Notes under the pieces: generated by a model
Seen by the model: only the letters and a program-made list of their open reading frames with translations
Database searches by the model: none
Told to the model about the DNA's origin: nothing
Virus record (IMG/VR): IMGVR_UViG_3300027730_000821
Coordinates: 1 to 64,000 of that record
Length of the DNA: 64,000 nt
Source of the DNA: an uncultured virus (IMG/VR IMGVR_UViG_3300027730_000821)
Lineage: Duplodnaviria > Heunggongvirae > Uroviricota > Caudoviricetes
Direction: 5' to 3' (one strand)
Shown here: in pieces, positions 33,125 through 63,103 of the stretch
How the letters are laid out: each line of letters opens with the position of its first letter
How positions within the stretch are numbered: the stretch's first letter is position 1
Program-made: the position numbers and the translations under genes

Positions 33125-33382
33125 ATGTCTAGAGTATTCAATTCCGAAGCTAAACTAAAACTAACTAACTTAGTCCATGAAGGTATGGGTGTATTACAAG
33201 AGGTTGAGGCATTAAACGAAGGCCTCAATGACACAATTAAGGCAATCGCTGAGGAACTTGAGATCAAGCCAAGCACTCTCAAGAAAGCGATTAAAGTGGC
33301 TCATAAGGCTCGTTTGAATGAGACGAATGACGAAAACGCTGAACTAAATAATATCTTGGAGACTGTTGGTCGTACTGATTAA
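33125..33382 (+). CDS. Small helical DNA-binding protein (T4 DsbA/GapR-like, tentative)
   Basis: AAGGAG RBS before ATG 33125; 'IKAIAEELEIKPSTLKKAIKVAHK'. Confidence 0.5.
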   Translation: MSRVFNSEAKLKLTNLVHEGMGVLQEVEALNEGLNDTIKAIAEELEIKPSTLKKAIKVAHKARLNETNDENAELNNILETVGRTD

Positions 33383-35580
33383 TGTATATTGATGCGATAT
33401 TAGATAGCAATTCTGACCGCATTCGTGTAGTTGAGCGGGGCGCCGACGGGAAACGAGCGTATAAAGAATATCATACCAATTATGTTCTTTATTACCAGGA
33501 TCCTAAAGGGAAGCATCGCTCTATCTACGGTGATCCTGTAACTCGCTTCTCTAGCCGTAAACGCAGTGAGTTCGAAAAAGAGCGCAGGATTCATTCTAAT
33601 AAAAAGCTTTTCGAAAGTGATGTCAACGTAATTTTCAGATGTTTGTCTGAAAACTACCTAAGAGCAGAACCTCCAAAGCTTCACACTTGTTTCTTCGATA
33701 TTGAAGTGGACTTTGATCCTGAAAAGGGTTTCAGTCCAACTTCAGATCCATTCAATCCAGTAACAGCGATCAGTTGTTATCTAGATTGGTTGGATCAGCT
33801 TGTTACGTTAGTTATTCCACCGAAACACATGACGGATGAGACTGCCCAAGAACTGATCAAAGATTTCCCGAACACTTTCCTATATCGCAGTGAGATAGAA
33901 ATGTTCGAGACATTTTTTGATCTGATCGAAGATGCAGATGTATTGACTGGTTGGAACTCAGAAGGATACGACATTCCATATATGGTAAATCGTATTACTC
34001 GTGTGATGTCTAAAGATGATACTCGCAAGTTCTGCCTCATGGGACAACTACCAAAGACTCGCACATACGAGAGATTCGGTAAAGAAGAACAGACCTATGA
34101 TCTAGTTGGTAGAATTCATATGGACTATCTTCAATTGTATAAGAAGTATAACTACGAGTCACGACATAGTTATTCACTCGATGCTATCGGTGAATATGAA
34201 CTAGGCGAGCGCAAGACTCAGTATGAGGGCACACTGGATCAATTGTACAACCGAGACTTCAAAACTTTCGTAGAATACAACAGGCAAGACACTATGCTTG
34301 TATTCAAGATCCACAACAAACTCAAATTTCTTGATCTTGCGAATGCACTAGCGCATGAAAACACAGTACTGCTACCAACTGTTATGGGTTCGGTGGCCAT
34401 GATTGAAATGGCAGTTTATAATGAAGCACATGAACGAGGATTTATCGTCCCTGACAAGAAGCGTAGGGATTCGTTTAGTGACGGACAACAAGCAGCAGGT
34501 GCATATGTTGCTGTACCGAAGACGGGGATTCACGAATACGTCGGCGCAGTTGATATCAACTCACTCTACCCCTCTGCCATCAGAGCCCTTAACATGGCTC
34601 CAGAAACTATTATCGGGCAGGTTCGTCAAACACTTACTGATCAGTATATGCATGAAAAGAGTATTGCTCTTGCTAAAGAAAAGCGTAAGAAAAAGAACGG
34701 CGACGATGCAGAAGCTGTGATTGGTGCTATTCTTTGGGAAAACCTATTCGGTTCATTAGAATATACCGCTATCATGAACCAAGAACGCGGCACTATGCTC
34801 ACCATCGATTATGAAGATGGTCGATCAAAAGAGATGTCTGCTGCTGAAATTTGGAAGATGATTTTTGATAGTCACAAGCCTTATATGCTATCGGCGAACG
34901 GGACCATCTTTACCTATGAGAAAGAAGGCATTATTCCCGGATTGCTCTCACGTTGGTATTCTGAACGTAAAATACTTCAGAAGCAAGCTAAAGAAGCGTA
35001 TGGCACTGATATGTACGAATATTATGACAAGCGACAGCTTGTTCGTAAGATTTTGCTTAACTCTGCATACGGCGCGCTTCTCAATGAGCATTGTAGGTTC
35101 TATGATAAGCGTATCGGGCAGTCAGTTACGTTGTCCGGTAGACAGATCGTAAAGCACATGATGAGTCAGATCAACGAGACTATCACCGAAAAATATCAAC
35201 ATGACGGTGATGCAATCGTATACGGTGACAGTGTTACTGGTGATTCTATTATTAGAACAACCGATGGTGATAAAACAATAGCGCAACTTTTTGATGAGTG
35301 CATTGAGCATTCAGTTGTGGGTGAAAAAGAGTATGGAGTATGGAATGATTCCACTGTGCTTGGATTTAATTCACATGATATGCAACCTACTGGGGCAAAA
35401 ATTAGTTACGTTATGCGACATAAAACTAGGAAAAAACTTTATAAAATCACAACAGAGAACGGGAAACAGGTAACTGTCACTGAAGATCATAGTATAATGG
35501 TCGATCGGGATGGATTCTTAGTAGAATGTAAACCTAATGAAATTCTTGAAACTGATGGAATTATTACTTTTGTGCCATAA
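33382..35580 (+). CDS. DNA polymerase B, N-terminal part fused to split-intein N-fragment
   Basis: Exo motifs 'FDIEV', 'GWNSEGYDIPY', 'YNRQD'; 'DINSLYPS'; 'KILLNSAYG'; 'YGD|SVTGD' intein start at 35230; block B 'VTVTEDHSIM'. Confidence 0.93.
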   Translation: MYIDAILDSNSDRIRVVERGADGKRAYKEYHTNYVLYYQDPKGKHRSIYGDPVTRFSSRKRSEFEKERRIHSNKKLFESDVNVIFRCLSENYLRAEPPKLHTCFFDIEVDFDPEKGFSPTSDPFNPVTAISCYLDWLDQLVTLVIPPKHMTDETAQELIKDFPNTFLYRSEIEMFETFFDLIEDADVLTGWNSEGYDIPYMVNRITRVMSKDDTRKFCLMGQLPKTRTYERFGKEEQTYDLVGRIHMDYLQLYKKYNYESRHSYSLDAIGEYELGERKTQYEGTLDQLYNRDFKTFVEYNRQDTMLVFKIHNKLKFLDLANALAHENTVLLPTVMGSVAMIEMAVYNEAHERGFIVPDKKRRDSFSDGQQAAGAYVAVPKTGIHEYVGAVDINSLYPSAIRALNMAPETIIGQVRQTLTDQYMHEKSIALAKEKRKKKNGDDAEAVIGAILWENLFGSLEYTAIMNQERGTMLTIDYEDGRSKEMSAAEIWKMIFDSHKPYMLSANGTIFTYEKEGIIPGLLSRWYSERKILQKQAKEAYGTDMYEYYDKRQLVRKILLNSAYGALLNEHCRFYDKRIGQSVTLSGRQIVKHMMSQINETITEKYQHDGDAIVYGDSVTGDSIIRTTDGDKTIAQLFDECIEHSVVGEKEYGVWNDSTVLGFNSHDMQPTGAKISYVMRHKTRKKLYKITTENGKQVTVTEDHSIMVDRDGFLVECKPNEILETDGIITFVP

Positions 35581-35589
35581 CGCATAAAT

Positions 35590-35616
35590 ATATGCTGATA
35601 GGAGTATCAGCATATG
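35590..35616 (+). promoter_or_regulatory. RBS-sequestering hairpin of polymerase-embedded endonuclease
   Basis: ATATGCTGATA-GGAG-TATCAGCATAT 11-bp perfect stem just after ATAAATA. Confidence 0.7.
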
Positions 35617-36576
35617 ATAAAGTGTTTAGAATGTGGAATGGAAACTAGTAGACTACAGTGGACTCATTTTAAGTATAACTGCACAGGTAAATTTTCTAAT
35701 TCCAAAGAATACAAGTTGGCATATCCTCAAGCCGTGTTAGTATCAGCGGATGTTGCCGCAAAAACGGCTATTACAAAAGAGAGATTGATTGAAAAGTATG
35801 GGATAGAAGAGGGTACGATTCGATGGAACCAATACAAAGTTAAACAAGCGGATTCTAATTCATTTGAGTACAAACGTAAAAAACACGGATGGACAGTTGA
35901 ACAGTATAATGAGTATAATTCGTCTAGGGCACAGACCTTAGAAAAAATGATTGCCCGTCATGGGGAAAAGTTAGGTACTACTAAGTGGCTAGCGTATTGT
36001 GAACGACAAGCATACACCAATAGTAAAACCTATTTCGTTAACAAGTATGGAACTGAAGAGGGTACGTCTAGATTTCTACAGTTAAATATCGAAAAAGGTA
36101 GCTCATTTAATCCGCAATTAGTAGCAACTAAATTGGGAATATCCCTTGATGAAGCGGTCACACTAATTTTAAACCGGGTAGTATATCCCGGTAATATTTG
36201 GGGTTCCAACATAGAAAAAGAATTTACGACCATGCTGATTGACAATTATGGATCATTAGAGTATACTACGTTTACTAGACCCTACGGAAGATGGTCTTCT
36301 TTCTTAGGAACATATGTGATATACGATATAAAACACAAAGACTGTATAATTGAATTTAACGGTGATTACTGGCATGCGAATCCGTCTTTATATAAAAATG
36401 ATGCAGTTATTCGGGGTCGTACTGCATTAGAGATTCAAGAATATGATAGTAAAAAATTGAAGACAGCAACTGATCTTGGGTTTCGCACGTATACGGTGTG
36501 GGAATCTGAATTTAAATTAGATAAACAAAATACAATTAATAAGGTGAAAGCATGGATGCAGAGTGGACAAAAATAA
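35614..36576 (+). CDS. Vsr/DUF559-like putative homing endonuclease between split-intein halves
   Basis: N-terminal CxxC..H, repeated 'KYG.EEG..RW' units, 'YD...IIEFNGDYWHANP...G.....VWE'. Confidence 0.8.
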   Translation: MIKCLECGMETSRLQWTHFKYNCTGKFSNSKEYKLAYPQAVLVSADVAAKTAITKERLIEKYGIEEGTIRWNQYKVKQADSNSFEYKRKKHGWTVEQYNEYNSSRAQTLEKMIARHGEKLGTTKWLAYCERQAYTNSKTYFVNKYGTEEGTSRFLQLNIEKGSSFNPQLVATKLGISLDEAVTLILNRVVYPGNIWGSNIEKEFTTMLIDNYGSLEYTTFTRPYGRWSSFLGTYVIYDIKHKDCIIEFNGDYWHANPSLYKNDAVIRGRTALEIQEYDSKKLKTATDLGFRTYTVWESEFKLDKQNTINKVKAWMQSGQK

Positions 36577-37535
36577 AAAAGGTAGAATGTCTTGGTGAAG
36601 TTGATGACTATGTATACGACTTGAGTATTGTAGATAGTGATCCGTTTTTCTTTGCAAATGATATCCTAGTTCATAACACTGATAGCTGTTATTTCAGTGC
36701 ATATCACGCGATCAAACCACAGATCGATAAGGGTGAGATTGAATGGAACAAGGAAGTATGCATCCAATTATACGATAATATTGCTGATATCGCAAACGAT
36801 AGTTTTCCAGGCTTCATGGAGAAGGCATTTCATTGTCCCCGCAAGAACGGTGAGATCATCAAAGCTGGTCGTGAACTGATCGGGGATCGTACTCTATTCA
36901 TCACAAAGAAGCGTTATGCAATCAATATCTTTGATAAAGAAGGCAAGCGTAAAGATGTGAATGGTAAGATGGGTGAGATCAAGGCTATGGGTCTTGACTT
37001 GAAACGAGCAGATACTCCTAAGTATGTTCAGACGTTCTTGATGGAAGTACTTGAGCAGGTATTGGGTGGCGTTCCTCGCGCCGAAGTTATCACTAAGATC
37101 AGAGAATTCAAGACTTGGCTTTCTGAACAAGATAGTTGGACTAAAGGTTCTCCTAAGTCAGTTAACAATCTTACTAAACATACGATCAAGTATGAGAAGA
37201 CCGGTCAGTGTAGTGTTGGACATGCGAAAGCTGCTATCAATTATAACTACTTGCGTAAGATGAACGGTGACCAGTATAGTCAGAAGATCGTAGATGGTAT
37301 GAAGGTTGTTGTGTGTACTCTCAAATCAAATCCATTAGGGTTGACTTCGATTGCATATCCAACTGATGAGCTTAGGCTACCACAATGGTTCCTTGAACTT
37401 CCTTTTGATGATAATGAAATGGAACGTAAGCTAGTCGATGAGAAAATCGATAACCTATTAGGTGTACTTGACTGGGATATCAGAACAGATACTAACACTA
37501 ACAGTACATTCAGTGATCTGTTCAGTTTCGGTTAA
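36552..37535 (+). CDS. Split-intein C-fragment (42 aa) fused to DNA polymerase B C-terminal part
   Basis: 'YVYDLSI...FFFANDILVHN|TDSCYF' restores YGDTDS; 'KKRYA', 'MGLDLKRADTP'. Confidence 0.93.
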   Translation: MDAEWTKIKKVECLGEVDDYVYDLSIVDSDPFFFANDILVHNTDSCYFSAYHAIKPQIDKGEIEWNKEVCIQLYDNIADIANDSFPGFMEKAFHCPRKNGEIIKAGRELIGDRTLFITKKRYAINIFDKEGKRKDVNGKMGEIKAMGLDLKRADTPKYVQTFLMEVLEQVLGGVPRAEVITKIREFKTWLSEQDSWTKGSPKSVNNLTKHTIKYEKTGQCSVGHAKAAINYNYLRKMNGDQYSQKIVDGMKVVVCTLKSNPLGLTSIAYPTDELRLPQWFLELPFDDNEMERKLVDEKIDNLLGVLDWDIRTDTNTNSTFSDLFSFG

Positions 37536-41845: not shown

Positions 41846-43025
41846 ACTTTACTACATGGGGCTTGAGGCCTATACCGCTCGTTACACGCTACAGTTGACC
41901 GATTGGAACAGTCGGGTATTTCATGACCGTAAACTCAAGGTCGTGTATGTTCCCGGAACAACGCTCGATAATAGGCAAAAGATCGTTGTTGGACAAGTAC
42001 TAGATGCACATGGTCGCAGCTATTTTGCCATGAGTCAGATGATGAATCTGGTAGCGATGATGCAAAAAGGTGAAATTACTAACGAAGACGTAATCTACTT
42101 CGAAGATATGTTTCAGCCGGGCTTTGAGAGTCTTGGGTATATCTTGAATCAGGTTCCTGATAAACTACGTCCACGCATCTTTGTTCGTTGTCTAGCACAG
42201 ACTATCGACCCCGATGACTTTGTTCATGTCTGGGGCATGAACAAGTGGATGAGCAACTACGAACATATGGTTAATGACATCGTTTCTTTCTCTAAGGGTG
42301 CAATTCTCGCAACTAGTGAAGAAATGGTCATGAACATGAAGGTCGCAGGTTGGACTGCTCCTATCTACAATATCTCAGGACTTGCTTTTGGCAAGTATGA
42401 AGTTATTGGACGAGTAGAAAAGATTAAGGCTTTTACTGATCGTCGTATGCGAGTGGTATTTAGCGCCCGCTGGGATCAGGAGAAGCAGCCAGACTTCTAT
42501 ATGGATTTGATTGAAGCATGGAGTGAAAGATATCCCAGTAAAGATGTTGAGTTCGTTGTTTGTAGTGGTAGTTCACTGAAGTCAAACAATGAAAGTTACA
42601 TGGTCCGTACTCGTAAGATGCAAGATAGCGGCAAGCTGACTATCTACGAAAACCTCGAAAAGGATCAGTATTACGAGATTCTTAACGATAGTCGTGTAGT
42701 CTTCAATTGTGCATTGCAAGATTGGGTCTCAAACACGGTAAGCGAAGCAGATGCATTAGGTTGTAACGTACTTTATCCAGCGTATCGCTCGTTCCCTGAA
42801 ACATTCGCAAATGATCATGAACGTCTCTATACGCCATGGTCGTTAGAAGATGCAGTTAATAAGTTGGATCCTCTTCTCAGGAAACCTCATGTCAACATGG
42901 GCAAGATCAGTGATTGGACTAATGGTACTGTTGATCGCATCGTTGATATCATCGAAGGTAAAGGTGAAGGGTGGTTACGCATGTCAACTGACTATCGTAA
43001 GTATTCTAAGGAAGCAAAGTACTAA
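41838..43025 (+). CDS. GT-B (group 1-like) glycosyltransferase
   Basis: '[11 protein letters not shown]', '[11 protein letters not shown]...YP..RSFPE'. Confidence 0.7.
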
Positions 43026-44089
43026 TGCATATTGAAAACGAAATTCTACTAGACTTTAGTGACGTGTTGATTCGGCCAAAAAGGTCAACACTAGCTAGCC
43101 GTAAAGACGTACATCTGCATCGAACCTATACATTTAAGCATAGCGGTCATGTTTGGAATGGTATCCCTATTATGGCTGCTAACATGGATGGCGTAGGCAC
43201 CGTCGAAATGGCTTTGGCATTGCAAACTCAAGACATATTTACTTGCTTAACCAAAGATAATATTGAAATTCCCCCTGGGTTAAATTCTGATAGATATGCT
43301 ATCAGCACTGGTACAAGCGACAGAGACTTTGAACGCTTACAAATGCTATTAAACAAGCATCCTTATATTCATTTTATCTGTATTGATGTTGCTAACGGAT
43401 ATAGCGAACACTTTGGTGACTTTGTTACTAAGATTAGAAAAGAATACCCCAGCCACACAATTATCGCGGGCAATGTTGTTACCGCAGACATGACACAGGA
43501 GTTAATTTTACGTGGAGCAGATATTGTTAAGGTGGGCATCGGGCCAGGGAGCGTTTGCACAACTCGTATTCAAACTGGCGTTGGTTATCCTCAGCTTAGT
43601 GCTATTGTGGAGTGCAGTGATGCTGCTCACGGTCTTGGTGGCCATATCATTGCCGACGGAGGCTGCACCTGTCCAGGAGATGTTGCTAAGGCATTCGGCG
43701 CCGGTGCAGATTTCGTGATGCTAGGTGGTATGCTTGCTGGCCACGACGAGGGCGGCGGAAAAATATTCAAACGCTGGGTAAAAACTGAATATTCTAGTGA
43801 ACTAGGTAAACCCATTCGCGATTGCGAATATCGAGTACAGTTCTATGGTATGAGTTCCGATTCGGCTATGCGTAAGCATCACGGCAGTGTTGCTGACTAT
43901 CGTAGTAGTGAAGGACGAACGGTAGAGATTCCTTATAAGGGTCCGGTAGAAGATACTGTTAAGGATATTCTAGGCGGTTTAAGAAGTGCGTGTACGTATA
44001 CCGGGGCTTCCGAACTTAAACACTTAAGTAAATGCACAACCTTTGTTCGGGTAAATAAACAATTTAATGATACATACGTCAAGCGATAA
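43025..44089 (+). CDS. guaC: GMP reductase
   Basis: '[13 protein letters not shown]', 'AANMD', 'DVANGYSE', '[13 protein letters not shown]', 'FYGMSS', 'YRSSEG'. Confidence 0.93.
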
Positions 44090-44172
44090 ATAATAATGTA
44101 GCACAAAGGCTACAAAGTGAGAGTGAACTCTCCGTTGGGTATTAACGTTAGATACTTTGAAAGGAAAAAAAT

Positions 44173-44853
44173 ATGTCTTTTAATAAAAATAAATGTGACC
44201 CCGAATTGGGTCGTCTCGTCCATGAACATCTTGTAAAGATGGGGGTTGAAACTCCCACTATCGAAAACAATCTCAGCAGAACCGACAAAATTGAGATCAT
44301 TGAACGCAAGTTTAAGGATATCATGGAAACCTTAGGGCTTGACCTAAGTGATGATAGTCTTATTGAAACTCCCAAGCGTGTTGCCAAAATGTATGTAGGT
44401 GAAATCTTTTGGGGCCTCGACTACGAAGCATTTCCCAAGTGTACTACAGTTGACAACAAGATGAACTACGATGAAATGGTAGTAGAGCGTAACATTATTG
44501 TTATGAGTAACTGTGAACATCATTTTGTCCAAATTGACGGTCTTGCTACTGTTGCGTATGTACCCAACGAAAAGGTTCTTGGTCTATCCAAGATCAATCG
44601 TATTGTTGAATATTTCAGCAAGCGGCCACAGATTCAGGAGCGTTTGACTGAACAGGTATTTCACACTCTTTGCTACATTCTTGAAACCGAAGATGTTGCA
44701 GTCATGATTGATGCCCAGCACTATTGTGTTAAGTCGCGCGGTGTAGAAGATACAGGGTCAAGCACAGTAACGTGTAAGCTGGGCGGCGGATTCAAGTCTG
44801 ACCCTGCTGCTCGTGCAGAGTTTCTTAGTATCGCTCGCATGAGTAAGTGCTAA
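44173..44853 (+). CDS. folE: GTP cyclohydrolase I
   Basis: 'ETPKRVAKM', 'CEHH', 'GLSKINR', 'RPQIQERLT', 'HYCVKSRG'. Confidence 0.95.
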   Translation: MSFNKNKCDPELGRLVHEHLVKMGVETPTIENNLSRTDKIEIIERKFKDIMETLGLDLSDDSLIETPKRVAKMYVGEIFWGLDYEAFPKCTTVDNKMNYDEMVVERNIIVMSNCEHHFVQIDGLATVAYVPNEKVLGLSKINRIVEYFSKRPQIQERLTEQVFHTLCYILETEDVAVMIDAQHYCVKSRGVEDTGSSTVTCKLGGGFKSDPAARAEFLSIARMSKC

Positions 44854-44870
44854 CGGAATTTATCATATCA

Positions 44871-45083
44871 ATGGCCCAGCTAGACCTTCACGGTGTTAGA
44901 CACCAGGATGTTGATCTGTTAGTGGAGAACTTCGTTCTAATGAACCAGAATGAGTTCCCACTAACTATCATCTGCGGTAACAGCATTAAAATGATTAAGC
45001 TGGTTGAGAATACGATAAATAGGATTGGATGCGATGCAACTATGATCAGACATGGATTCATAGTTATTCAGCGTATCAAATAA
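44871..45083 (+). CDS. Small Smr-domain-like protein
   Basis: 'LDLHG' and 'IICGNS'. Confidence 0.55.
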   Translation: MAQLDLHGVRHQDVDLLVENFVLMNQNEFPLTIICGNSIKMIKLVENTINRIGCDATMIRHGFIVIQRIK

Positions 45084-45127
45084 ACAGCGGTCTTGGCGTC
45101 ATTCCCGCTTGACAAATTCTGCCGCCT
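45083..45127 (+). promoter_or_regulatory. Pseudoknot RNA motif, copy 1 (riboswitch candidate)
   Basis: AGCGG/CCGCT stem; loop GGCG pairs with downstream CGCC. Confidence 0.55.
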
Positions 45128-45155
45128 ATGTTATGCTAATATAGGAGATTAAAAT

Positions 45156-45303
45156 ATGGCAAATCAACCAGGCAACTATTATCAAATATGCTCGGAGAAG
45201 GATATCAGGATCATGGTCTTGATCTAAATCAGATTTATAATGCAGAAGGCTTTTGTGAAGTTGAGGATATCCTCAACTACATCAATCGTCGGTATGCTTA
45301 TTA
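45156..45303 (+). pseudogene. Possible gene remnant between the two pseudoknot copies
   Basis: Strong AGGAG RBS but only 23 codons (MANQPG...MVLI*); a different frame continues to ...INRRYAY*. Confidence 0.35.
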
Positions 45304-45350
45304 ACAGTGGTCTTTGACACTCATTCCCACTATAAACATTCTGCGTGTCA
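45303..45350 (+). promoter_or_regulatory. Pseudoknot RNA motif, copy 2, directly upstream of queD RBS
   Basis: AGTGG/CCACT stem; loop TGACAC pairs with GTGTCA, 4 nt before AAGGAG. Confidence 0.6.
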
Positions 45351-45367
45351 TCTAAAGGAGAAAAAAG

Positions 45368-45847
45368 ATGACAAAAAAATATGTATCAACTAAAGAATAT
45401 TCACACCTTGCGCCTCTGGCGTATCGGCAATGGCGAGCGGATAGTCACTGTCGTTTAATACACGGCTATGCATTGTCTTTCAAATTTGAATTTGAATGCG
45501 ATGACCTTGACGCCCGAAATTGGTGTTTTGATTACGGTGGGCTCCGGCCACTTAAGGATTTCCTAGAAGATAATTTTGACCACGTATTACTTTTAGCCCA
45601 AGATGATCCATACTATGATACCATTAAGCAACTAGGAGAATTAGGATTGGCAAAGATAATTGAGGTTGAAAAGACCGGATGCGAGGGACTTGCAGATTAC
45701 CTGTATGAATATGTGAATACTATTTTCCTTCCATCCTGCGGCGAGGCAGAGGCTGCAAGAGTTTGGTGTGCGAAAGTAGAAGTGAGAGAAACCCCATCAA
45801 ACATGGCATACAGGCAAGGCCATAGAGAAGACGGCGAGTTTCTATAA
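45368..45847 (+). CDS. queD: 6-carboxytetrahydropterin synthase
   Basis: 'SHCRLIHGY', 'DYGGL', 'FDH', 'EVRET..NMA'. Confidence 0.88.
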   Translation: MTKKYVSTKEYSHLAPLAYRQWRADSHCRLIHGYALSFKFEFECDDLDARNWCFDYGGLRPLKDFLEDNFDHVLLLAQDDPYYDTIKQLGELGLAKIIEVEKTGCEGLADYLYEYVNTIFLPSCGEAEAARVWCAKVEVRETPSNMAYRQGHREDGEFL

Positions 45848-45866
45848 TAGAATCAGTGGGGAATAA

Positions 45867-46565
45867 TTATTTATTTCCCGCTATTTTGCATTTATTTCCA
45901 TGCCATCTTTTATAATTTCCAGCATTAAGTCCTGACTTGCCGCAATATTCACACGAACGATTCTTTTGGTTTAGCTTATTTGCCAATGATTTATTTAAAG
46001 AATATTGTTTCTTTCTGGCCTCTGAGATTTTTGTTAAAATTTCAGGGGTCAGTATAGCACCAAATCTAGGATTGTTCTCTCCTTGCGAATGCTTTGTTCG
46101 GACGAACGTTTCTTTTCGTTTTAAATTTGCTGCATCCGATTGCATCAGGTTAACGAATCTATCTACCATAAATTTCCGAAATTCCGGATCCTCTTCCATG
46201 TGCCTCCGCCTACTTTTGTGACTATTCTTCCATGAAGAATCCGAGTAGTTGTCTGTTAAAATTGCTTTACTATCGGATTTATTAAGCCAATCTTCCTTAT
46301 ACACCGCCTTTACTCTTTTTATGTAAGTATGCTCATATAATCTACATTCTGCTGCTGTAGTAAAAGTACGATGAATAACAACTATATCTGGAGGCCCGTA
46401 CTTTTGCCAATGTTCATTGACACTAACTGACGATGTAGTATATCGACCGGTCAGTATGTTCTCTGGGTTAGCTTTTTTGCCGTACTGACAGCCATAATAT
46501 TTGGTATTGGTGCCTCGCCACATAATAAAGTAAGTATAGGGTGTAAAGACAGAATAAATAGACAT
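45867..46565 (-). CDS. GIY-YIG (Seg-like) homing endonuclease
   Basis: 'YTYFI...KYYG...YTTSS...YEH...WLNKS'; 'GENNPRFG'; C-terminal 'CEYCGK...RWHGNKC'. Confidence 0.75.
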   Translation of the reverse strand: MSIYSVFTPYTYFIMWRGTNTKYYGCQYGKKANPENILTGRYTTSSVSVNEHWQKYGPPDIVVIHRTFTTAAECRLYEHTYIKRVKAVYKEDWLNKSDSKAILTDNYSDSSWKNSHKSRRRHMEEDPEFRKFMVDRFVNLMQSDAANLKRKETFVRTKHSQGENNPRFGAILTPEILTKISEARKKQYSLNKSLANKLNQKNRSCEYCGKSGLNAGNYKRWHGNKCKIAGNK

Positions 46566-46632
46566 GCTGGTAGTTCCTTTTCAACTATTAGAGTGAGTGG
46601 GAATGGGAGTTCCGTGACTCACGCTTATTTAT
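46563..46632 (-). promoter_or_regulatory. Conserved structured leader of endonuclease gene, copy 2
   Basis: Minus strand: ATAAATA..GTGAGT CAC GGAA(loop)TTCC C ACTCAC TCTAA TAGTT(GAAAAGG)AACTA CCAGC ATG. Confidence 0.8.
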
Positions 46633-46640
46633 CTTTTTTC

Positions 46641-46669
46641 TTGACAACCTAACCTAAATAGTATATAAT
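46641..46669 (+). promoter_or_regulatory. Consensus sigma70 promoter
   Basis: TTGACA-N17-TATAAT. Confidence 0.75.
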
Positions 46670-46684
46670 AATTTATTGATATAA

Positions 46685-46731
46685 AAAGTATATAATGACT
46701 AAGAAAGTATATAATGACTAAGAAAGTATAT
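46685..46731 (+). repeat. 19-bp tandem repeat (about 2.5 copies) over the PRTase start
   Basis: AAAGTATATAATGACTAAG twice plus AAAGTATAT. Confidence 0.9.
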
Positions 46732-47268
46732 TACACTGACAAACAGATTGACGGTATGGTTCATAACATCATAAGACAGATTACTGTAGACCAGTTTCGA
46801 CCTGATTATGTTGTAGGCATTACCAGAGGAGGATTAGTTCCTGCTCTAATGATTAGCCATTATTTGAATATTCCAATGCATACACTAAAAGTCAGTTTGC
46901 GCAGCGATCCCCCTGATACTGAACTAAATGCCTGGATGTCTGAAGATGCATTTGGGTATGTTTCGTCGGATGATCGCCCTGTCATAAAAAGTCGTTGGGA
47001 TACCAAAAAGCGTAAAAATATCCTGATCGTGGATGACATCAATGATAGCGGCATGACCTTTGATTGGATTAAACAAGATTGGATTAATAGCTGCTTCCCG
47101 GATCAAAAAGAAGCTTGGGATTCAGTTTGGAATCATAATGTGAAGTTTGCTGTTTTGGTAGAGAACGAAGCAAGTGATTTTGAAGGAATCGACTATTTTG
47201 GGGAAGCCATAAACAAAATTGAAGATCCGGTCGCTATTCGATTTCCCTGGGAGCGGTGGTGGAAGTAG
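46714..47268 (+). CDS. Type I phosphoribosyltransferase (Gpt/Hpt-like)
   Basis: 'VVGITRGGLVPA', PRPP loop 'ILIVDDINDSGMT', 'FPWE'. Confidence 0.88.
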   Translation: MTKKVYYTDKQIDGMVHNIIRQITVDQFRPDYVVGITRGGLVPALMISHYLNIPMHTLKVSLRSDPPDTELNAWMSEDAFGYVSSDDRPVIKSRWDTKKRKNILIVDDINDSGMTFDWIKQDWINSCFPDQKEAWDSVWNHNVKFAVLVENEASDFEGIDYFGEAINKIEDPVAIRFPWERWWK

Positions 47269-47678
47269 TGAATATCGTTCCGTTATGTGACGAGCTAATG
47301 GTTCAACAACAGATTACATCCGAGTGGCAACATATGGTAGGGGTGATCATGCTGAACCAGACTCATAGGTTGTTGGTAAAAAGGGTCCTTCCTGAATTCT
47401 TATCTAGATGGGACACATGTGAGAAGTTCTTGACAAGTACGAGCGAAGAAGTATATGAAGTTATACGTCCGCTTGGATTAGTCATTGTTCGGGAAAACCG
47501 AATTAGAAGGATGTCCAATCAATACTTGACATGGGACAAGAGTGATGCTAAAGTTCTTTATGGTATAGGAAAGTATGGCAGTGATAGTTATGAGATTTTC
47601 TTTAAGAACAACTATGCTGTACAACCTACTGATAAAGAATTAGTGCGATACCTAAGAGAAGAATGCATAGATGCATAA
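47256..47678 (+). CDS. HhH-GPD DNA glycosylase (MBD4-like, minimal)
   Basis: 'IMLNQT', 'IRPLGL', HhH 'LYGIGKYGSDSY', 'PTDKEL'. Confidence 0.75.
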   Translation: MVEVVNIVPLCDELMVQQQITSEWQHMVGVIMLNQTHRLLVKRVLPEFLSRWDTCEKFLTSTSEEVYEVIRPLGLVIVRENRIRRMSNQYLTWDKSDAKVLYGIGKYGSDSYEIFFKNNYAVQPTDKELVRYLREECIDA

Positions 47679-47844
47679 TAAAATTGTGAATTATATAGAT
47701 GCTAAGAATGGTAGGCATTTGTATTCTATTCCTTTCTACGATCCAGATAACTTATATGAAGGTTGGATTTACAAATCGGGCGACAAATATAAGACATATG
47801 AAGAATATCTAAAAGAACGAGACAATGACGCAAATCAAGATTAG
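47671..47844 (+). CDS. Small hypothetical protein (57 aa, not in ORF track)
   Basis: Fills the gap with overlaps on both sides. Confidence 0.45.
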   Translation: MHNKIVNYIDAKNGRHLYSIPFYDPDNLYEGWIYKSGDKYKTYEEYLKERDNDANQD

Positions 47845-48679
47845 TGAACTATTTTATTCTATTCAGGGTGAAGGCAGGTATCAAGGCGTACCTAGCATTT
47901 TCCTAAGAACGTTTGGCTGCAACTTCACGTGTGGAGGATTTGGTATGCCTAAGGGAGAAACGTCTGTTGAACGGAAAAAGATCGACCCGAAAGTTTACAA
48001 AGATTACAATTCTCTCCCACTCGTCACCACTGGTTGCGATTCTTACGCCTCATGGGACCCTCGATTTAAGCATCTTTCTCCTAGTAAGGACATTGATACC
48101 ATTGTTGATGACATCATGGAACTACTACCGTTTAAAGAATGGAAAAACGAACATCTTGTCATCACAGGAGGAGAACCACTACTTGGATGGCAGCGAGCTT
48201 TCCCAAAACTCTTGAGTCATCCTAAGATGGCGGGTCTCAAAGAGATTACTTTTGAGACTAATGGTACACAGGAACTTTCACCTGAGTTCGCACACTATCT
48301 TGAAGACTGGAGCTGGCCAGAAGTATATCCGGGATTTGAACGAGAAATCACTTTTAGCGTCAGTCCTAAGTTAAGTTGTTCCGGTGAGTCTCATAAGAGT
48401 GCGATCAAACCTAAGGTTGTGCGTGAATATGAGAAATTTGGCTATGCATACCTCAAGTTTGTGATCTCTACAGAAGAAGATGCTCAGGAAGCACTTGAAG
48501 TATCTAAGCTATATCGTGATGAGGGTTTTGAGGGGCCTGTATATTTCATGCCCGTCGGTGGAGTAGAGAGTGTATATCAATTGAATAACCTTACAGTTGC
48601 CGAGTTAGCAATGAAGTATGGTGTCAGATATAGTGATCGACTACATCTACCTTTGTTTGGTAACCGCTGGGGAACGTAA
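47825..48679 (+). CDS. queE: 7-carboxy-7-deazaguanine synthase (radical SAM)
   Basis: 'ELFYSIQGEG', 'FLRTFGCNFTC...CDS', 'ITGGEP', 'ETNG', 'SVSPK', 'RLH'. Confidence 0.9.
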   Translation: MTQIKISELFYSIQGEGRYQGVPSIFLRTFGCNFTCGGFGMPKGETSVERKKIDPKVYKDYNSLPLVTTGCDSYASWDPRFKHLSPSKDIDTIVDDIMELLPFKEWKNEHLVITGGEPLLGWQRAFPKLLSHPKMAGLKEITFETNGTQELSPEFAHYLEDWSWPEVYPGFEREITFSVSPKLSCSGESHKSAIKPKVVREYEKFGYAYLKFVISTEEDAQEALEVSKLYRDEGFEGPVYFMPVGGVESVYQLNNLTVAELAMKYGVRYSDRLHLPLFGNRWGT

Positions 48680-60416: not shown

Positions 60417-61241
60417 ATGTCGGCATCGTGGATTAACGCACTCAACAGTAGCGATTCTCGCATTCACAAAGAACACATTATCAGTCAGGCGCTAACAGCA
60501 GCATTACTTGGCAACACAACTGCTAAGTTTTTTCTTAATATGCTGAAGCTTTGTTATGATCCATACATCGTGTTTGGGGTAAGACAGATACCAGAAACTT
60601 TTGGAATTACTGATGCAGAAAACCCTTGGGACGAGTTTGGCGATCTTACTGTAAAGCTCGGCACTCGTGAACTCACCGGACATGATGCACGTGACGCTAT
60701 CCAAACAATGGCAGACCGATTCGACAGTGACGAGTGGAATACTTTTCTTGCTCCCGTTTTGCGGCGCGACATACGCTGTGGCATATCGTCAACCACAATC
60801 AACAAAGTTTGCAAAAAGACAGAGTACGAAATTTCAGTTTTTGGGTGTCAACTGGCAACCAATTCTGAAGGCAGACCCGAGATGACCGGTATCAAACGTC
60901 TCGAACCTAAACTTGATGGCTGTTTAAGTTCAGATTGGGTAGTTGAGTTTGAAGATGGCAGTAAAGTCACAATCAAGGAAGTAGTTGACAACAAATTAGC
61001 AGGTAAGGTCAAATCATACAATATGATTACCGGTAAGGTCGAATTTAACGAAATTACCGGCTGGGCGGTGGACGGAATTGATGACTCGGTCGATGATTAT
61101 GAATGGTACGAGATAACATTAGAGAACGGTAAAACTTTGCCACCGCTAACGGGTAATCATTTGGTCTATCTTCCTAAGTTAAAATGCTATCGTAGAGTAG
61201 ACTTGCTAACTGACAATGATGAATTATTAGAGCACATTTAA
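60417..61241 (+). CDS. ATP-dependent DNA ligase N-part fused to split-intein N-fragment
   Basis: 'EPKLDG|CLSSD' (KxDG then Cys1 at 60921); block B 'LTGNHLVY'. Confidence 0.9.
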   Translation: MSASWINALNSSDSRIHKEHIISQALTAALLGNTTAKFFLNMLKLCYDPYIVFGVRQIPETFGITDAENPWDEFGDLTVKLGTRELTGHDARDAIQTMADRFDSDEWNTFLAPVLRRDIRCGISSTTINKVCKKTEYEISVFGCQLATNSEGRPEMTGIKRLEPKLDGCLSSDWVVEFEDGSKVTIKEVVDNKLAGKVKSYNMITGKVEFNEITGWAVDGIDDSVDDYEWYEITLENGKTLPPLTGNHLVYLPKLKCYRRVDLLTDNDELLEHI

Positions 61242-61289
61242 CCATCTAATTTCTGCTACAGGCATAAATAACTATTATAGGAGATTATT

Positions 61290-62144
61290 ATGCCGGTATG
61301 TCATATATGTGGAAAAATAGTGAGGAACATTGACTATCACCTAATAGGTGAACAGTATAAGGATAAGATCAGTGATATGATACTAGCAGGATATTCTATC
61401 TTGTACCTATCCAAGAATTCGTTGACCTTATTCGGAGAGAAAATATCATATGACATGATATCTACAACCTGCAAGCACCACGGTATTAAAATACCCAGTT
61501 TAAAAGATACTGCAAACAGTAGAATAACACGAGATTTGTATAAGTCTACTGTAGAAAAAACATATGGTCATGGAATAACCAATGTATCTCAATCCAAACT
61601 AATCAAAGAAAAGAAAAATAATACAAACTTAGATAGGTATGGAGTAATAAATCCGTTTCAACGAGAAGAAGTAAAGCAAAAATCAAAAGAAACCCTATAT
61701 AAAAAATACGGAGTTCTTAACCCAGTTGAACTGCCATAGTATACCAAAAACAATGGGAGATTCTCTAAACCTCACAAAAAAATATCAGATTTCCTACATA
61801 CTCTGACTATAGAACACGACAATGACAAAGCTGGTCTATTTAGAAAATTTAATGACGAGTTAAAAAGAACGTATTCACCTATCCCTGATATTTTTATTCC
61901 TGATAAAAATGTCGTAATAGAAATATTCGGTGATAGATGGCACATGAATCCAAGAATATACCACGAGTCTGATGTTGTCGTGTTTTTTGACGGTCCGTGT
62001 ACGGCCGCTGAGGTCTGGTTAGGTGATGAAATACGAAATAACCATATCCGCTATTTTGGGGTTGACATAATTGTAATTTGGGAATATGATATCAAATATC
62101 ACTTTGAAGACATCAAACTAATGCTAACTGAAAGATTGACATGA
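61290..62144 (+). pseudogene. Vsr/DUF559-like endonuclease interrupted by in-frame TAG (61737-61739)
   Basis: Same frame continues after TAG through 'PDIF...VIEIFGDRWHMNP...IWE'. Confidence 0.8.
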
Positions 62145-63103
62145 CCACCCTAAAAATCAAAAGTATTAAAAAACTACCTCCAACCAAAATGGCACGGTAT
62201 GACATACAAGTAAAGAATACCGAAAACTTTTTTGCAAATGGGGTGCTAGTCCACAACTGCCGTGTTCTACTAGTAGTGCAAGTTCTTGACAGCGGGGCAC
62301 ATGTCACATGCTATAGCCGTAATGGTAAGGTATTTGAAAACTTTAACCACATCGAAAAACAAGTACTTGATAACTTACCTGAAATGATTGCTGCTAGGCA
62401 TGAGGTAGGAGGCCTTGGGGCAGACCTAACTCTTGGATTTGTGCTTGATGGTGAAGTTGTGGGTAATAGTTTTCAAGAACTGATGCGCCAGGCTCGTCGT
62501 AAAGAAAATGTTGCGAGCGAGGACAGTGTGTTTCACGTATTTGACATTATTCCTATTCTTGATTTTAGCAGGGGATACTGGAACGCATCCCTGACCAAAC
62601 GTCTCGCATTGCTTGACGCAATGAAGTCTGCCATTGACAAGATGTCCAACCTAGAATTACTTCCACATCTACTTGTTGATCTTACTACACTCGAGGGCAG
62701 AAATCAGCTTGATCGTTATGCAAAAGATATGGTTACTGCTGGATTTGAGGGCATCATGATCAAGGATCTTGCGACCTCGTATGAATGTAAGCGTAACACC
62801 GCCTGGATGAAGTACAAGCCCGTGCATGATTACGACCTCACTGTAATCGGTGTGGAATCCGGTACCGGAAAGAACAAGGACAGAATGGGAGCATTGGTCT
62901 GTGAAGGAATGGACGACGGAAAACACATTGTAGTCAATGTGGGTAGCGGGTTTACTGATGCTGAACGACAAGAATATTGGGATAACCGAAACGATCTGAT
63001 CGGGCGATCGGTGGTAATTATGGCAGATGCGATAACTCTTAATCAAAACGGCACTTATAGTCTACGTTTTCCTAGATTTAAATCATTTCGATATGACAAG
63101 TGA
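62141..63103 (+). CDS. Split-intein C-fragment (39 aa) fused to DNA ligase C-part
   Basis: 'RYDIQV..TENFFANGVLVHN|CR'; 'LDGEV', 'FHVFD', 'EGIMIK', 'WMKYKP', 'VGSGFTD', 'SLRFPRF'. Confidence 0.92.
   Translation: MTTLKIKSIKKLPPTKMARYDIQVKNTENFFANGVLVHNCRVLLVVQVLDSGAHVTCYSRNGKVFENFNHIEKQVLDNLPEMIAARHEVGGLGADLTLGFVLDGEVVGNSFQELMRQARRKENVASEDSVFHVFDIIPILDFSRGYWNASLTKRLALLDAMKSAIDKMSNLELLPHLLVDLTTLEGRNQLDRYAKDMVTAGFEGIMIKDLATSYECKRNTAWMKYKPVHDYDLTVIGVESGTGKNKDRMGALVCEGMDDGKHIVVNVGSGFTDAERQEYWDNRNDLIGRSVVIMADAITLNQNGTYSLRFPRFKSFRYDK

What the first reader, a model, noticed from the sequence alone, without database searches (positions are those of the whole stretch)
45083..45367. Tandem covarying H-type pseudoknots upstream of queD: candidate phage riboswitch in the deazaguanine pathway
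Seen: two copies 220 nt apart, AACAGCGG TCTT GGCG TCATTC CCGCT TGACAA ATTCTGC CGCC and AACAGTGG TCTT TGACAC TCATTC CCACT ATAAAC ATTCTGC GTGTCA. P1 covaries (AGCGG/CCGCT vs AGTGG/CCACT), the loop-tail pairing covaries (GGCG/CGCC vs TGACAC/GTGTCA), and unpaired TCTT, TCATTC and ATTCTGC are invariant. Each copy precedes an AGGAG RBS. Established: preQ1-I riboswitches are small H-type pseudoknots with a GG-U...C-CC core upstream of que genes. Inference: a preQ1-I-like variant with a different 3' tail that may sense another intermediate (CDG, 7-deazaguanine, a pterin or a guanine nucleotide), since no queC is seen here. Caveat: each copy also contains a TTGACA-N17 promoter-like string, at non-equivalent positions.
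Basis: partly seen in the sequence, partly recalled or inferred. Interest (0 to 1): 0.85.

Follow-up and report, generated by a model that had tools for sequence, protein, structure and literature searches.

The report
Phage queD leader pseudoknot riboswitch candidate
A small knotted RNA fold sits just in front of the queD gene in many uncultured lake phages and probably switches that gene's translation, which makes it a candidate for a new riboswitch class seen almost only in phages.

Summary
Two about 48-nt copies lie at 45083-45126 and 45303-45350, 220 nt apart, and nowhere else in the window. They belong to a widespread motif. It was found in 57 of 80 viral loci chosen only for encoding a QueD relative and in 69 of 80 pattern-selected loci. 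It is always on the queD strand, once per locus, and 97 of 101 hits sit directly before a QueD-like ORF. Both pseudoknot helices covary. No Rfam 15 family matches, preQ1-I (RF00522) included.

The 3' strand of P2 can instead pair with the start codon or Shine-Dalgarno region. So the pseudoknot and a translation-blocking helix exclude each other, which predicts an ON switch.

The tandem layout is not conserved. Copy 1 precedes a 23-codon remnant, and a lake contig joins 45082 to 45303, leaving only copy 2. Most homologs also carry a sigma-70-like promoter inside the element.

Best reading: a new preQ1-I-like riboswitch candidate restricted almost entirely to phages, ligand unknown. Ligand binding is untested.

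The parts
45083..45126 (+). Copy 1 of the pseudoknot (form with internal promoter): P1 45086-45090/45105-45109, P2 45095-45098/45123-45126, L3 45110-45122
   Evidence: 63.5 bits with model R1; near-identical aptamers upstream of queD in other viral contigs
45109..45137 (+). Sigma-70-like promoter inside copy 1 (TTGACA, 17 nt, TATGCT, TG before the -10). It overlaps L3, the P2 3' strand and the platform hairpin. A start about 7 nt further on would put all of copy 2 into the transcript.
   Evidence: 10 of 12, best in 43900-46000; an equivalent site scores at least 10 of 13 in 92 of 128 distinct homologous contexts, against 1.2% of random 50-nt windows. Function inferred, not shown.
45120..45161 (+). 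Copy 1 expression platform: outer helix TGCCG (45120-45124) with TGGCA (45157-45161), inner hairpin starting at CCTATG (45125) that takes in AGG of the Shine-Dalgarno AGGAG (45143-45147)
   Evidence: (-11.7 kcal/mol); the same two-helix platform folds in most homologs of this form
45156..45227 (+). 23-codon ORF after copy 1. Its first five codons (MANQP) equal the start of QueD in other contigs; likely a remnant of a displaced queD start.
   Evidence: L131, L136, L308 QueD start MANQP.... The rest of 45140-45305 has no relative among the fetched loci except L145. Remnant status is an inference.
45303..45350 (+). Copy 2 of the pseudoknot (form without internal promoter), the one in front of the intact queD: P1 45306-45310/45327-45331, P2 45315-45320/45345-45350, L3 45332-45344
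   Evidence: 50.6 bits; close relatives L202, L225, L318, L319
45346..45373 (+). Alternative helix of copy 2: TGTCATCT (45346-45353, sharing 5 nt with the P2 3' strand) pairs with AGATGACA (45366-45373), which holds the queD start codon 45368-45370; Shine-Dalgarno AGGAG 45356-45360 lies in the loop
   Evidence: 8 bp; -8.5 kcal/mol for the platform alone; leader z-score -2.42. RNAalifold predicts the same helix on 20 leaders of this form.
45368..45847 (+). queD-like gene (6-carboxytetrahydropterin / PTPS family), the regulated gene
   Evidence: Pfam PF01242, E 5.9e-15; phrog_2389 QueD-like
45855..45882 (+). Terminator-like hairpin with T tail after queD
   Evidence: 12 pairs
44173..44853 (+). 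folE (GTP cyclohydrolase I), the upstream gene of the same pathway; a likely source of read-through transcripts that carry copy 1
   Evidence: Pfam PF01227, E 2.4e-60. FolE lies upstream of the motif in 12 of 14 annotated loci. Read-through is inferred.
44871..45083 (+). 70-78-aa ORF of no known family whose stop codon TAA (45081-45083) abuts copy 1
   Evidence: no Pfam or PHROG family

Best explanation
The two repeats are copies of a phage-specific cis-regulatory RNA in the leader of queD. The RNA is an H-type pseudoknot of about 45 nt. It has a 5-bp P1 closed by two G-C pairs and an L1 reading N-C-U-U. P2 is 4-7 bp. L2 reads UCA(U)(U)C and ends in an invariant C. L3 reads N-N-A-N-A-N-A-Y-U-C-Y-G-C. 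The 3' strand of P2, with the preceding UGC, has a second possible partner: the start-codon region or the Shine-Dalgarno sequence of queD. The pseudoknot and this translation-blocking helix cannot form together. I infer that a small ligand bound at the P1-P2 junction stabilises the pseudoknot, frees the ribosome-binding site and turns queD translation ON. The invariant C next to P1 suggests a ligand with a guanine-like face: an intermediate of the GTP to 7-deazaguanine pathway such as dihydroneopterin triphosphate, CPH4, CDG or preQ0, or a guanine nucleotide. In the window, copy 2 is the working switch for queD. Copy 1 is left over from a gene replacement; it keeps an embedded sigma-70-like promoter that would transcribe copy 2 and queD. 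Shown: the motif, its covariation, its exclusive link to queD, and the two competing pairings. Inferred: ligand binding, the ligand's nature, the ON direction, and promoter activity.
For: Link to queD:
- 57 of 80 viral loci picked only for encoding a QueD relative carry the motif at 28.8-73 bits, all on the queD strand. 55 lie directly upstream, one lies before a cupin-queD pair, and one lies before an inserted ORF.
- 97 of 101 pattern-found hits, and 79 of 83 distinct downstream ORFs, are followed by a QueD-like start.
- The QueD proteins go down to 36% identity while the RNA core stays constant.
- There is one copy per locus: 70 hits in 69 of 80 loci across 573 kb.

Covariation:
- P1 is 99.2% paired. 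Pair 6-31 reads CG 76, AU 14, UA 8; pair 5-32 reads GC 91, CG 6.
- The P1 forms are AGCGG/CCGCU 67, AGAGG/CCUCU 12, AGUGG/CCACU 8, ACCGG/CCGGU 5 of 96, plus 4 single others.
- Native P2 duplexes average -6.18 kcal/mol against -4.63 +/- 0.15 for permuted partners (0 of 5000), with about 60 distinct duplexes listed.
- On a MAFFT alignment not fitted to structure (A3), P1+P2 are 91.5% paired against 81.9 +/- 1.2 shuffled (0 of 500) and 37.5-63.7% when slid. 4 of 6 P2 pairs show double changes.

Switch:
- The P2 3' strand pairs with the start codon or Shine-Dalgarno region in folds of the platforms.
- RNAalifold predicts this 6-pair helix on 20 leaders.
- Native strand/start pairings beat permuted ones overall (20 of 5000).

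Transcription of the aptamer:
- 11 of 36 contexts without an internal promoter have a strong sigma-70-like promoter ending within 50 nt upstream of P1, against 1.2% background.

Not a known family.
Against: - No ligand test and no RNA data were possible. No RNA run with raw reads holds the locus, so transcript ends are unknown.
- 92 of 128 contexts have a near-consensus promoter inside the element. Its transcript would lack the aptamer, so in those phages much queD mRNA may escape control.
- Covariation of the anti-start helix is thin: mostly one-sided changes, 2 double changes at one pair. The permutation test is weak within subtypes (109 of 5000 without internal promoter, 355 of 5000 with it).
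- An ON switch on a biosynthetic gene is unusual, and I cannot name a ligand.
- The sequences are related, so the shuffle tests overstate independence.
- The regular expression used to collect instances fixed GG, CC, three A's and U-C-G, so invariance at those columns is by construction.
Confidence: 0.55

Rival explanations
1. It is a true, divergent preQ1-I riboswitch (a further subtype) that binds preQ1 or preQ0 and shuts queD off as feedback.
For: It has the same H-type topology, a 5-bp P1 topped by G-C pairs, an invariant C directly before the P1 3' strand (98 of 98, unconstrained column), and invariant A's in L3. It sits before a gene of the preQ0 pathway. The review PMC11625349 (passages read) names the cytosine specificity base, a U in L1 and an A in L3 as the ligand contacts of class I.
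Against: RF00522 finds nothing at either copy or at 12 variants at E up to 10. The first L1 base is U in only 49 of 98. A conserved YUCYGC block separates the A's from P2. The Shine-Dalgarno sequence is not in P2. The competing helix predicts ON, not OFF. No QueC was seen in the window or in 14 annotated neighbourhoods, so these phages may not make preQ0 or preQ1.
Confidence: 0.12
2. It is a structured leader without a small-molecule ligand. It could be a binding site for a phage or host protein (a translational operator), an RNA thermometer, or a fold remodelled by ribosomes that terminate on the upstream gene.
For: Strongly conserved single-stranded blocks (NCUU, UCAUUC, UCUGC) could equally be protein contacts. 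The upstream ORF's stop codon lies 4-22 nt before P1 in many loci, and at 2 nt in the window. So a terminating ribosome would reach P1.
Against: The upstream gene varies (HIT, PRTase, nucleotidyl transferase, small ORFs), and some aptamers sit right after a promoter with no upstream gene. A compact pseudoknot with conserved junction residues and an alternative helix is the usual anatomy of a riboswitch. No candidate partner protein is conserved next to it.
Confidence: 0.2
3. It is only a DNA element: a conserved phage promoter with an upstream operator, with no function as RNA.
For: There is a TTTACA-17-TGnTATAAT-like site in 92 of 128 contexts, and the variation in the -10 hexamer follows the TAnnnT rule. 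The P1 inverted repeat lies just upstream of the -35.
Against: 36 of 128 contexts, copy 2 among them, keep the whole pseudoknot but have no internal promoter. P2 pairs a segment upstream of the -35 with the promoter spacer and covaries in many forms, which duplex DNA recognition does not explain. The element always lies on the queD strand.
Confidence: 0.05
4. The two copies act together as a cooperative tandem riboswitch.
For: Two full aptamers lie on one strand 220 nt apart, both scoring high.
Against: Only the window and its near-identical contig L145 have two copies. Copy 1 controls a 23-codon remnant. A contig in run X16 joins 45082 to 45303, so a single-copy form exists in nature.
Confidence: 0.03

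Closest known systems
preQ1-I riboswitch (Rfam RF00522; types I-III as reviewed in PMC11625349 and PMC10622847, passages read)
   Same: Small H-type pseudoknot; 5-bp P1; a C immediately 5' of the P1 3' strand; adenines of L3 placed to line the P1 minor groove; placed before a gene of the queuosine/7-deazaguanine pathway; control of translation.
   Different: No match to the family model. L1 reads NCUU rather than starting with a conserved U. L2 reads UCA(U)(U)C. An extra conserved YUCYGC lies before P2. P2 is longer (4-7 bp) and does not contain the Shine-Dalgarno sequence. The P2 3' strand competes with an anti-start helix, which predicts ON. It is found in phage contigs, with only 2 true hits in one genome from each of 185,579 prokaryote species.
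ON-type translational riboswitches in which the aptamer competes with a sequestering helix (adenine add type; recalled, not tested here)
   Same: One strand is shared between the aptamer and a helix that covers the start codon or Shine-Dalgarno sequence.
   Different: The aptamer fold is different (pseudoknot, not a three-way junction) and the ligand is unknown.
Promoter-early stem-loop cassettes (PeSL) of T4-type phages (Arbiol et al. 2010; recalled, paper not read)
   Same: A stem-loop joined to a sigma-70-type early promoter in a large phage, lying next to regions of gene replacement.
   Different: PeSLs are repeated many times per genome before unrelated genes. This motif occurs once per locus and only at queD, and it has a covarying pseudoknot.

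Membership tests
preQ1-I riboswitch (RF00522) | Match to the Rfam covariance model at or above its gathering score (39 bits) | tested here: not met
   No RF00522 match at either copy at E up to 10 (801 nt, whole record: the best hits of 10.8 and 9.2 bits lie elsewhere). None in 12 variant loci.
preQ1-I riboswitch (RF00522) | H-type pseudoknot with short P1 and P2 | tested here: met
   P1 99% paired with compensatory changes; P2 85% paired, 4 of 6 pairs with double changes; partner-permutation test 0 of 5000.
preQ1-I riboswitch (RF00522) | Cytosine specificity base directly before the 3' strand of P1 | tested here: met
   C in 98 of 98 aligned aptamers, at a column not fixed by the collecting pattern.
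preQ1-I riboswitch (RF00522) | Conserved U at the first L1 position (ligand contact; PMC11625349) | tested here: not met
   U 49, C 38, A 11 of 98. The next two positions (C 92, U 91) are the conserved ones.
preQ1-I riboswitch (RF00522) | A-rich L3 running straight into the P2 3' strand | tested here: inconclusive
   A's at L3 positions 3, 5 and 7 are always present (partly fixed by the collecting pattern), but a conserved YUCYGC follows them before P2.
preQ1-I riboswitch (RF00522) | Shine-Dalgarno sequence in or next to P2, giving an OFF switch | tested here: not met
   The Shine-Dalgarno sequence starts 5-30 nt after P2. The P2 3' strand instead pairs alternatively with the start or Shine-Dalgarno region.
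preQ1-I riboswitch (RF00522) | Binds preQ1 | not testable with these tools
   Needs in-line probing or ITC.
Riboswitch (general) | Conserved, covarying aptamer in the 5' leader, on the strand of the regulated gene, across diverged genes | tested here: met
Riboswitch (general) | Expression platform with a pairing that excludes the aptamer | tested here: met
   Predicted only. P2 (columns 45-51) and the anti-start helix (columns 48-53) share columns 48-51 of alignment A3.
Riboswitch (general) | Direct, selective ligand binding | not testable with these tools
   No experiment was possible.
Tandem riboswitch | Two aptamers kept together across relatives | tested here: not met
   Two copies only in the window and L145; a single-copy joint was seen in run X16.
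PeSL-type mobile promoter cassette | Many copies per genome upstream of unrelated genes | tested here: not met
   2 hits in the 64-kb window, both at queD. One per locus in 573 kb of related contigs.

The most novel reading that the evidence does not exclude
This is a new riboswitch class confined almost entirely to phages. It is an ON switch that senses an intermediate of the GTP to 7-deazaguanine route for which no riboswitch is known (dihydroneopterin triphosphate, CPH4 or CDG). It lets the phage tie QueD synthesis to precursor supply late in infection, while an embedded early promoter gives unregulated expression at the start.
Probability: 0.35. Interest if true: 0.9.

Novelty: new variant of a known kind. 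Interest (0 to 1): 0.8.

Why it matters
Riboswitch classes that arose in phages, rather than being carried over from hosts, are hardly known. 7-deazaguanine DNA modification is a major phage defence against restriction, yet nothing is known about how phages regulate the pathway. A 45-nt aptamer with the preQ1-I architecture but different pocket residues would show how a minimal fold is re-tuned to a new ligand. It could also point to the metabolite that limits the phage pathway. The motif gives a sequence tag for a large group of uncultured freshwater phages that carry FolE, QueD and a QueE-like enzyme but showed no QueC in the stretches annotated here.

Tried and rejected
- Rfam: nothing at gathering score in the window. 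At E up to 10 there were only chance hits (PsrR1, 7SK, SNORA66).
- Cultured phages: blastn of a consensus-like leader against 50,697 phage records gave no true match. The closest cultured QueD genes (Acidovorax ACP17, Xanthomonas X1; 65-67% identity) abut their upstream genes and have no motif.
- RNA evidence: no RNA holder is listed for the locus. The one run guessed to be RNA (X16) is kept as contigs, which cannot show transcript ends.
- Remnant hypothesis: a blastn/tblastx search for relatives of 45140-45305 among all fetched loci found only L145. It therefore rests on five shared codons.
- Anti-start pairing: the permutation test is not significant for the internal-promoter form alone (355 of 5000).
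- First viral pattern scan: it was too loose, with 7 true loci among 117.
- Literature: four searches found no description of this motif. I read passages of PMC10622847, PMC11625349 and PMC10690425. Three of the supplementary files of PMC10690425 (ten thousand candidate phage RNAs) could not be searched, so the motif may be listed there unnamed.
The report uses instead.
- The metagenome-contig scan was not used.

Full report
**1. The observation**

The region 44700-45900 holds two direct repeats of about 48 nt that start at 45083 and 45303.

| Element | Copy 1 | Copy 2 |
|---|---|---|
| P1 | AGCGG 45086-45090 / CCGCT 45105-45109 | AGTGG 45306-45310 / CCACT 45327-45331 |
| P2 | GGCG 45095-45098 / CGCC 45123-45126 | TGACAC 45315-45320 / GTGTCA 45345-45350 |
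| Shared unpaired blocks | TCTT, TCATTC, ATTCTGC | TCTT, TCATTC, ATTCTGC |

- The joint pattern occurs exactly twice in 64 kb, and 0 of 100 shuffles gave two matches (sub-patterns).
- The whole 72.5-kb viral record has no third copy by pattern.
- AGGAG follows each copy.
- Copy 1 is followed by a 23-codon ORF (45156-45227).
- Copy 2 is followed by queD (45368-45847; Pfam PTPS; PHROG QueD-like).

**2. The motif is widespread and tied to queD**

- A relaxed regular expression found 101 instances in 100 of these loci.
- 97 of the 101 are followed within about 40 nt by an ORF with the QueD N-terminal signature.
- That is 79 of 83 distinct downstream ORFs. The exceptions are the window's remnant, a cut ORF that is also QueD-like, L220 and L228.

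To remove the pattern bias I collected loci by protein alone. An alignment of 16 QueD proteins (36-89% identical to the window's) retrieved 591 viral relatives, and the best 80 were kept. A covariance model of the aptamer (R1) gave these results:

| Set searched | Result |
|---|---|
| 80 QueD-chosen loci | Full-length hits of 28.8-73 bits in 57, plus one cut by a contig end; all on the queD strand |
| Position in those 57 | 55 directly upstream of queD; L274 before a cupin ORF and then queD; L289 before a 293-aa inserted ORF and then queD |
| 80 pattern-selected loci, 573 kb | One hit in each of 68 loci, two in L145, none in the 11 chance loci |
| Window, filters off | 63.5 and 50.6 bits; the next best is 10.1 |

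The element is therefore not a dispersed repeat or a mobile promoter cassette. It is a single-copy leader of queD.

**3. Where it occurs**

- The window is a fragment (CheckV completeness 21%) of a large phage from lake water. It encodes a split family-B polymerase, a clamp loader and PhoH.
- The motif was not found in 50,697 deposited phage genomes. The closest cultured QueD genes have no leader.
- One genome from each of 185,579 prokaryote species gave 3 pattern hits. Two are true: contigs of Haliscomenobacter and Chitinophagales MAGs, both before queD. One is chance.

**4. Structure**

*P1.* On 98 distinct aptamers aligned by MAFFT (A2), P1 is paired in 99.2% of cells. Pair 6-31 reads CG 76, AU 14, UA 8. 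Pair 5-32 reads GC 91, CG 6. RNAalifold finds the same helix.

*P2.* P2 varies in length and is out of register in A2, so I tested it in two other ways.

- Partner permutation: each loop's best duplex with its own 3' tail averages -6.18 kcal/mol, against -4.63 +/- 0.15 when tails are swapped between sequences (0 of 5000). About 60 distinct duplexes are listed.
- Unfitted alignment: on 20 whole leaders without an internal promoter (A3), P1+P2 are 91.5% paired against 81.9 +/- 1.2 in shuffles (0 of 500) and 37.5-63.7% when the partner is slid. 4 of 6 P2 pairs show changes on both sides.

*Caveats.*
- The sequences are related, so these tests are not probabilities.
- The collecting expression fixed GG, CC, three A's and U.C.G.
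- Columns it did not fix are still nearly invariant: the C before the P1 3' strand (98 of 98), L1 positions 2 and 3 (C 92, U 91), and the C after UCUG (95 of 98).

**5. Expression platform**

Folding the segment from the end of L3 to just past the start codon shows a recurring second partner for the P2 3' strand.

- *Leaders without an internal promoter.* The sequence UG(U/C)CAUC pairs with GAUG(G/A)CA, which holds the start codon. In the window's copy 2 this helix is 8 bp, 45346-45353 with 45366-45373. The platform alone folds at -8.5 kcal/mol, and the leader's z-score is -2.42.
- *Other variants.* The partner is the Shine-Dalgarno sequence instead, as in ACUCC/GGAGU.
- *Leaders with an internal promoter.* An outer helix (UGCCG with UGGCA of AUGGCA) closes an inner hairpin (CCUAUG with CAUAGG of the Shine-Dalgarno region). 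The P2 3' strand lies between the two.

RNAalifold, which cannot draw pseudoknots, predicts P1 plus exactly this 6-pair anti-start helix on the 20 leaders. The changes are mostly one-sided, and two pairs are kept through changes on both sides. P2 uses columns 45-51 and the anti-start helix uses columns 48-53 of the same alignment, so the two exclude each other. The partner-permutation test supports the pairing only modestly: 20 of 5000 overall, 109 of 5000 without an internal promoter, and 355 of 5000 with one.

The anatomy predicts that a stabilised pseudoknot frees the ribosome-binding site. That is an ON switch. The step from 'two exclusive folds' to 'ligand-driven' is inference.

**6. Promoters**

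- In 92 of 128 distinct contexts, the stretch from the last P1 base through the platform hairpin loop reads as a near-consensus sigma-70 promoter (typically TTTACA, 17 nt, TG-n-TATAAT). It scores at least 10 of 13, against 1.2% of random windows.
- The -10 hexamer varies in the TAnnnT manner, which a hairpin loop would not require. I therefore take the promoter to be real. Its transcript would start after P2 and escape control.
- The other 36 contexts, copy 2 among them, keep the pseudoknot without this promoter. So the RNA fold, not the promoter, is the constant unit.
- 11 of those 36 have a strong sigma-70-like promoter ending within 50 nt upstream of P1, which would place the aptamer at the 5' end of the mRNA.
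- A TAAATA or TAAGTA hexamer starts 9-17 nt before P1 in 84 of 128 contexts, against 0.65% background. It recalls the T4 late-promoter core (recalled, not tested) and could start a transcript right at P1. It sometimes overlaps the upstream stop codon.
- In the window, copy 1's promoter (45109-45137) would transcribe copy 2 and queD. A terminator-like hairpin follows queD at 45855-45882.

**7. The tandem layout**

- Only the window and its near-identical contig L145 have two copies.
- Copy 1 is followed by ATG GCA AAT CAA CCA, the first five codons of QueD in L131, L136 and L308. The sequence then diverges and stops after 23 codons.
- The rest of the spacer has no relative among the fetched loci.
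- In run X16 a 570-nt contig joins 45082 directly to 45303, so a population with only copy 2 exists.
- Other lake contigs match only the about 50 nt of copy 1 and differ on both sides. This fits a module that is exchanged between phages.

I read the tandem as the scar of a queD replacement, in which the new queD arrived with its own leader. I do not read it as a cooperative device.

**8. Comparison with the known**

The fold resembles preQ1-I as described in PMC11625349 and PMC10622847 (passages read). [quoted passage not shown]

- Met here: the topology, the C, and the A's.
- Not met: the L1 U, the model match, and a Shine-Dalgarno sequence inside P2.
- An extra conserved YUCYGC sits where the pocket should be.

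So the element works like preQ1-I in architecture but is not a member by the tests available.

Four literature searches found no description of it. A catalogue of ten thousand candidate phage RNAs (PMC10690425) does not mention queD in its text or in the supplements that could be searched. Three of its supplementary files could not be searched.

**9. Ligand**

The neighbourhoods hold FolE upstream (12 of 14 annotated loci), QueD, and QueE-like or B12-radical-SAM enzymes. They also hold phosphoribosyltransferase, HIT and nucleotidyl-transferase genes and many sugar-modifying enzymes, but no QueC or transglycosylase. An ON switch placed between folE and queD fits feed-forward control by the FolE product or another molecule with a guanine-like face. 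This is a guess to be tested, not a result.

**10. Verdict**

- The element is a widespread, covarying, queD-specific pseudoknot that Rfam 15 does not hold.
- Confidence that it is a functional cis-regulatory RNA is about 0.85.
- Confidence that it is a ligand-sensing ON switch is about 0.55.

Noticed in passing
window 43025-48679: The gene set around the motif is a GMP-reductase/IMPDH-like enzyme (43025-44089), FolE, QueD, a phosphoribosyltransferase (46714-47268), an HhH-GPD protein (47298-47678) and a QueE-like radical SAM enzyme (47825-48679). Glycosyltransferases and an epimerase flank it. No QueC or DpdA/TGT was seen. From memory this resembles the toyocamycin-type route to free deazapurine nucleotides more than the DpdA base-exchange route.
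   Followed up: partly
window 45082/45303 (run X16): A 570-nt lake contig joins 45082 directly to 45303, skipping copy 1 and the spacer (220 nt; 5 letters fit on either side). The tandem is therefore polymorphic in nature.
   Followed up: partly
9-17 nt upstream of P1 in related loci; e.g. L176:4042-4060 (-): A TAAATA or TAAGTA hexamer lies at a fixed distance before the aptamer in 84 of 128 contexts, against 0.65% of random windows. It may be a late-type promoter or part of the RNA. The window's own two copies lack it at that distance.
   Followed up: partly
window 33382-37535: The family-B DNA polymerase is in two ORFs (33382-35580 and 36552-37535). Intein-splicing matches lie at the end of the first and the start of the second, and a 320-aa ORF (35614-36576) lies between them.
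   Followed up: no
window 60417-63103: Two ORFs both match ATP-dependent DNA ligase (phrog_114): 60417-61241 matches the family's N-terminal part and 62141-63103 its C-terminal part. A homing-endonuclease-like ORF (61290-61739) lies between them. The ligase gene appears to be split by a mobile element.
   Followed up: no
window 45867-46565 (-); L289:603-1484; L175:414-1007; L185:5455-6294: Endonuclease-type or unassigned ORFs cluster around queD. The window has a 232-aa ORF with no family hit on the opposite strand just after queD. GIY-YIG ORFs lie near the locus in L175 and L185. In L289 a 293-aa ORF is inserted between the motif and queD. This fits frequent gene replacement at this site.
   Followed up: partly
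QueD alignment A1 (window 45368-45844 and 15 loci): All 16 motif-linked QueD proteins share S-H-C-x3-H-G-Y (invariant H27, C28, H32, G33, Y34). From memory, canonical QueD has H-G-H here, so this may be a distinct subfamily.
   Followed up: no
L324 (Haliscomenobacter MAG, 183-kb contig) and L326 (Chitinophagales MAG): The only true cellular-genome hits of the motif are contigs binned into two Bacteroidota MAGs, both before queD. This may hint at the host group, or the contigs may be phage contigs binned by mistake.
   Followed up: no
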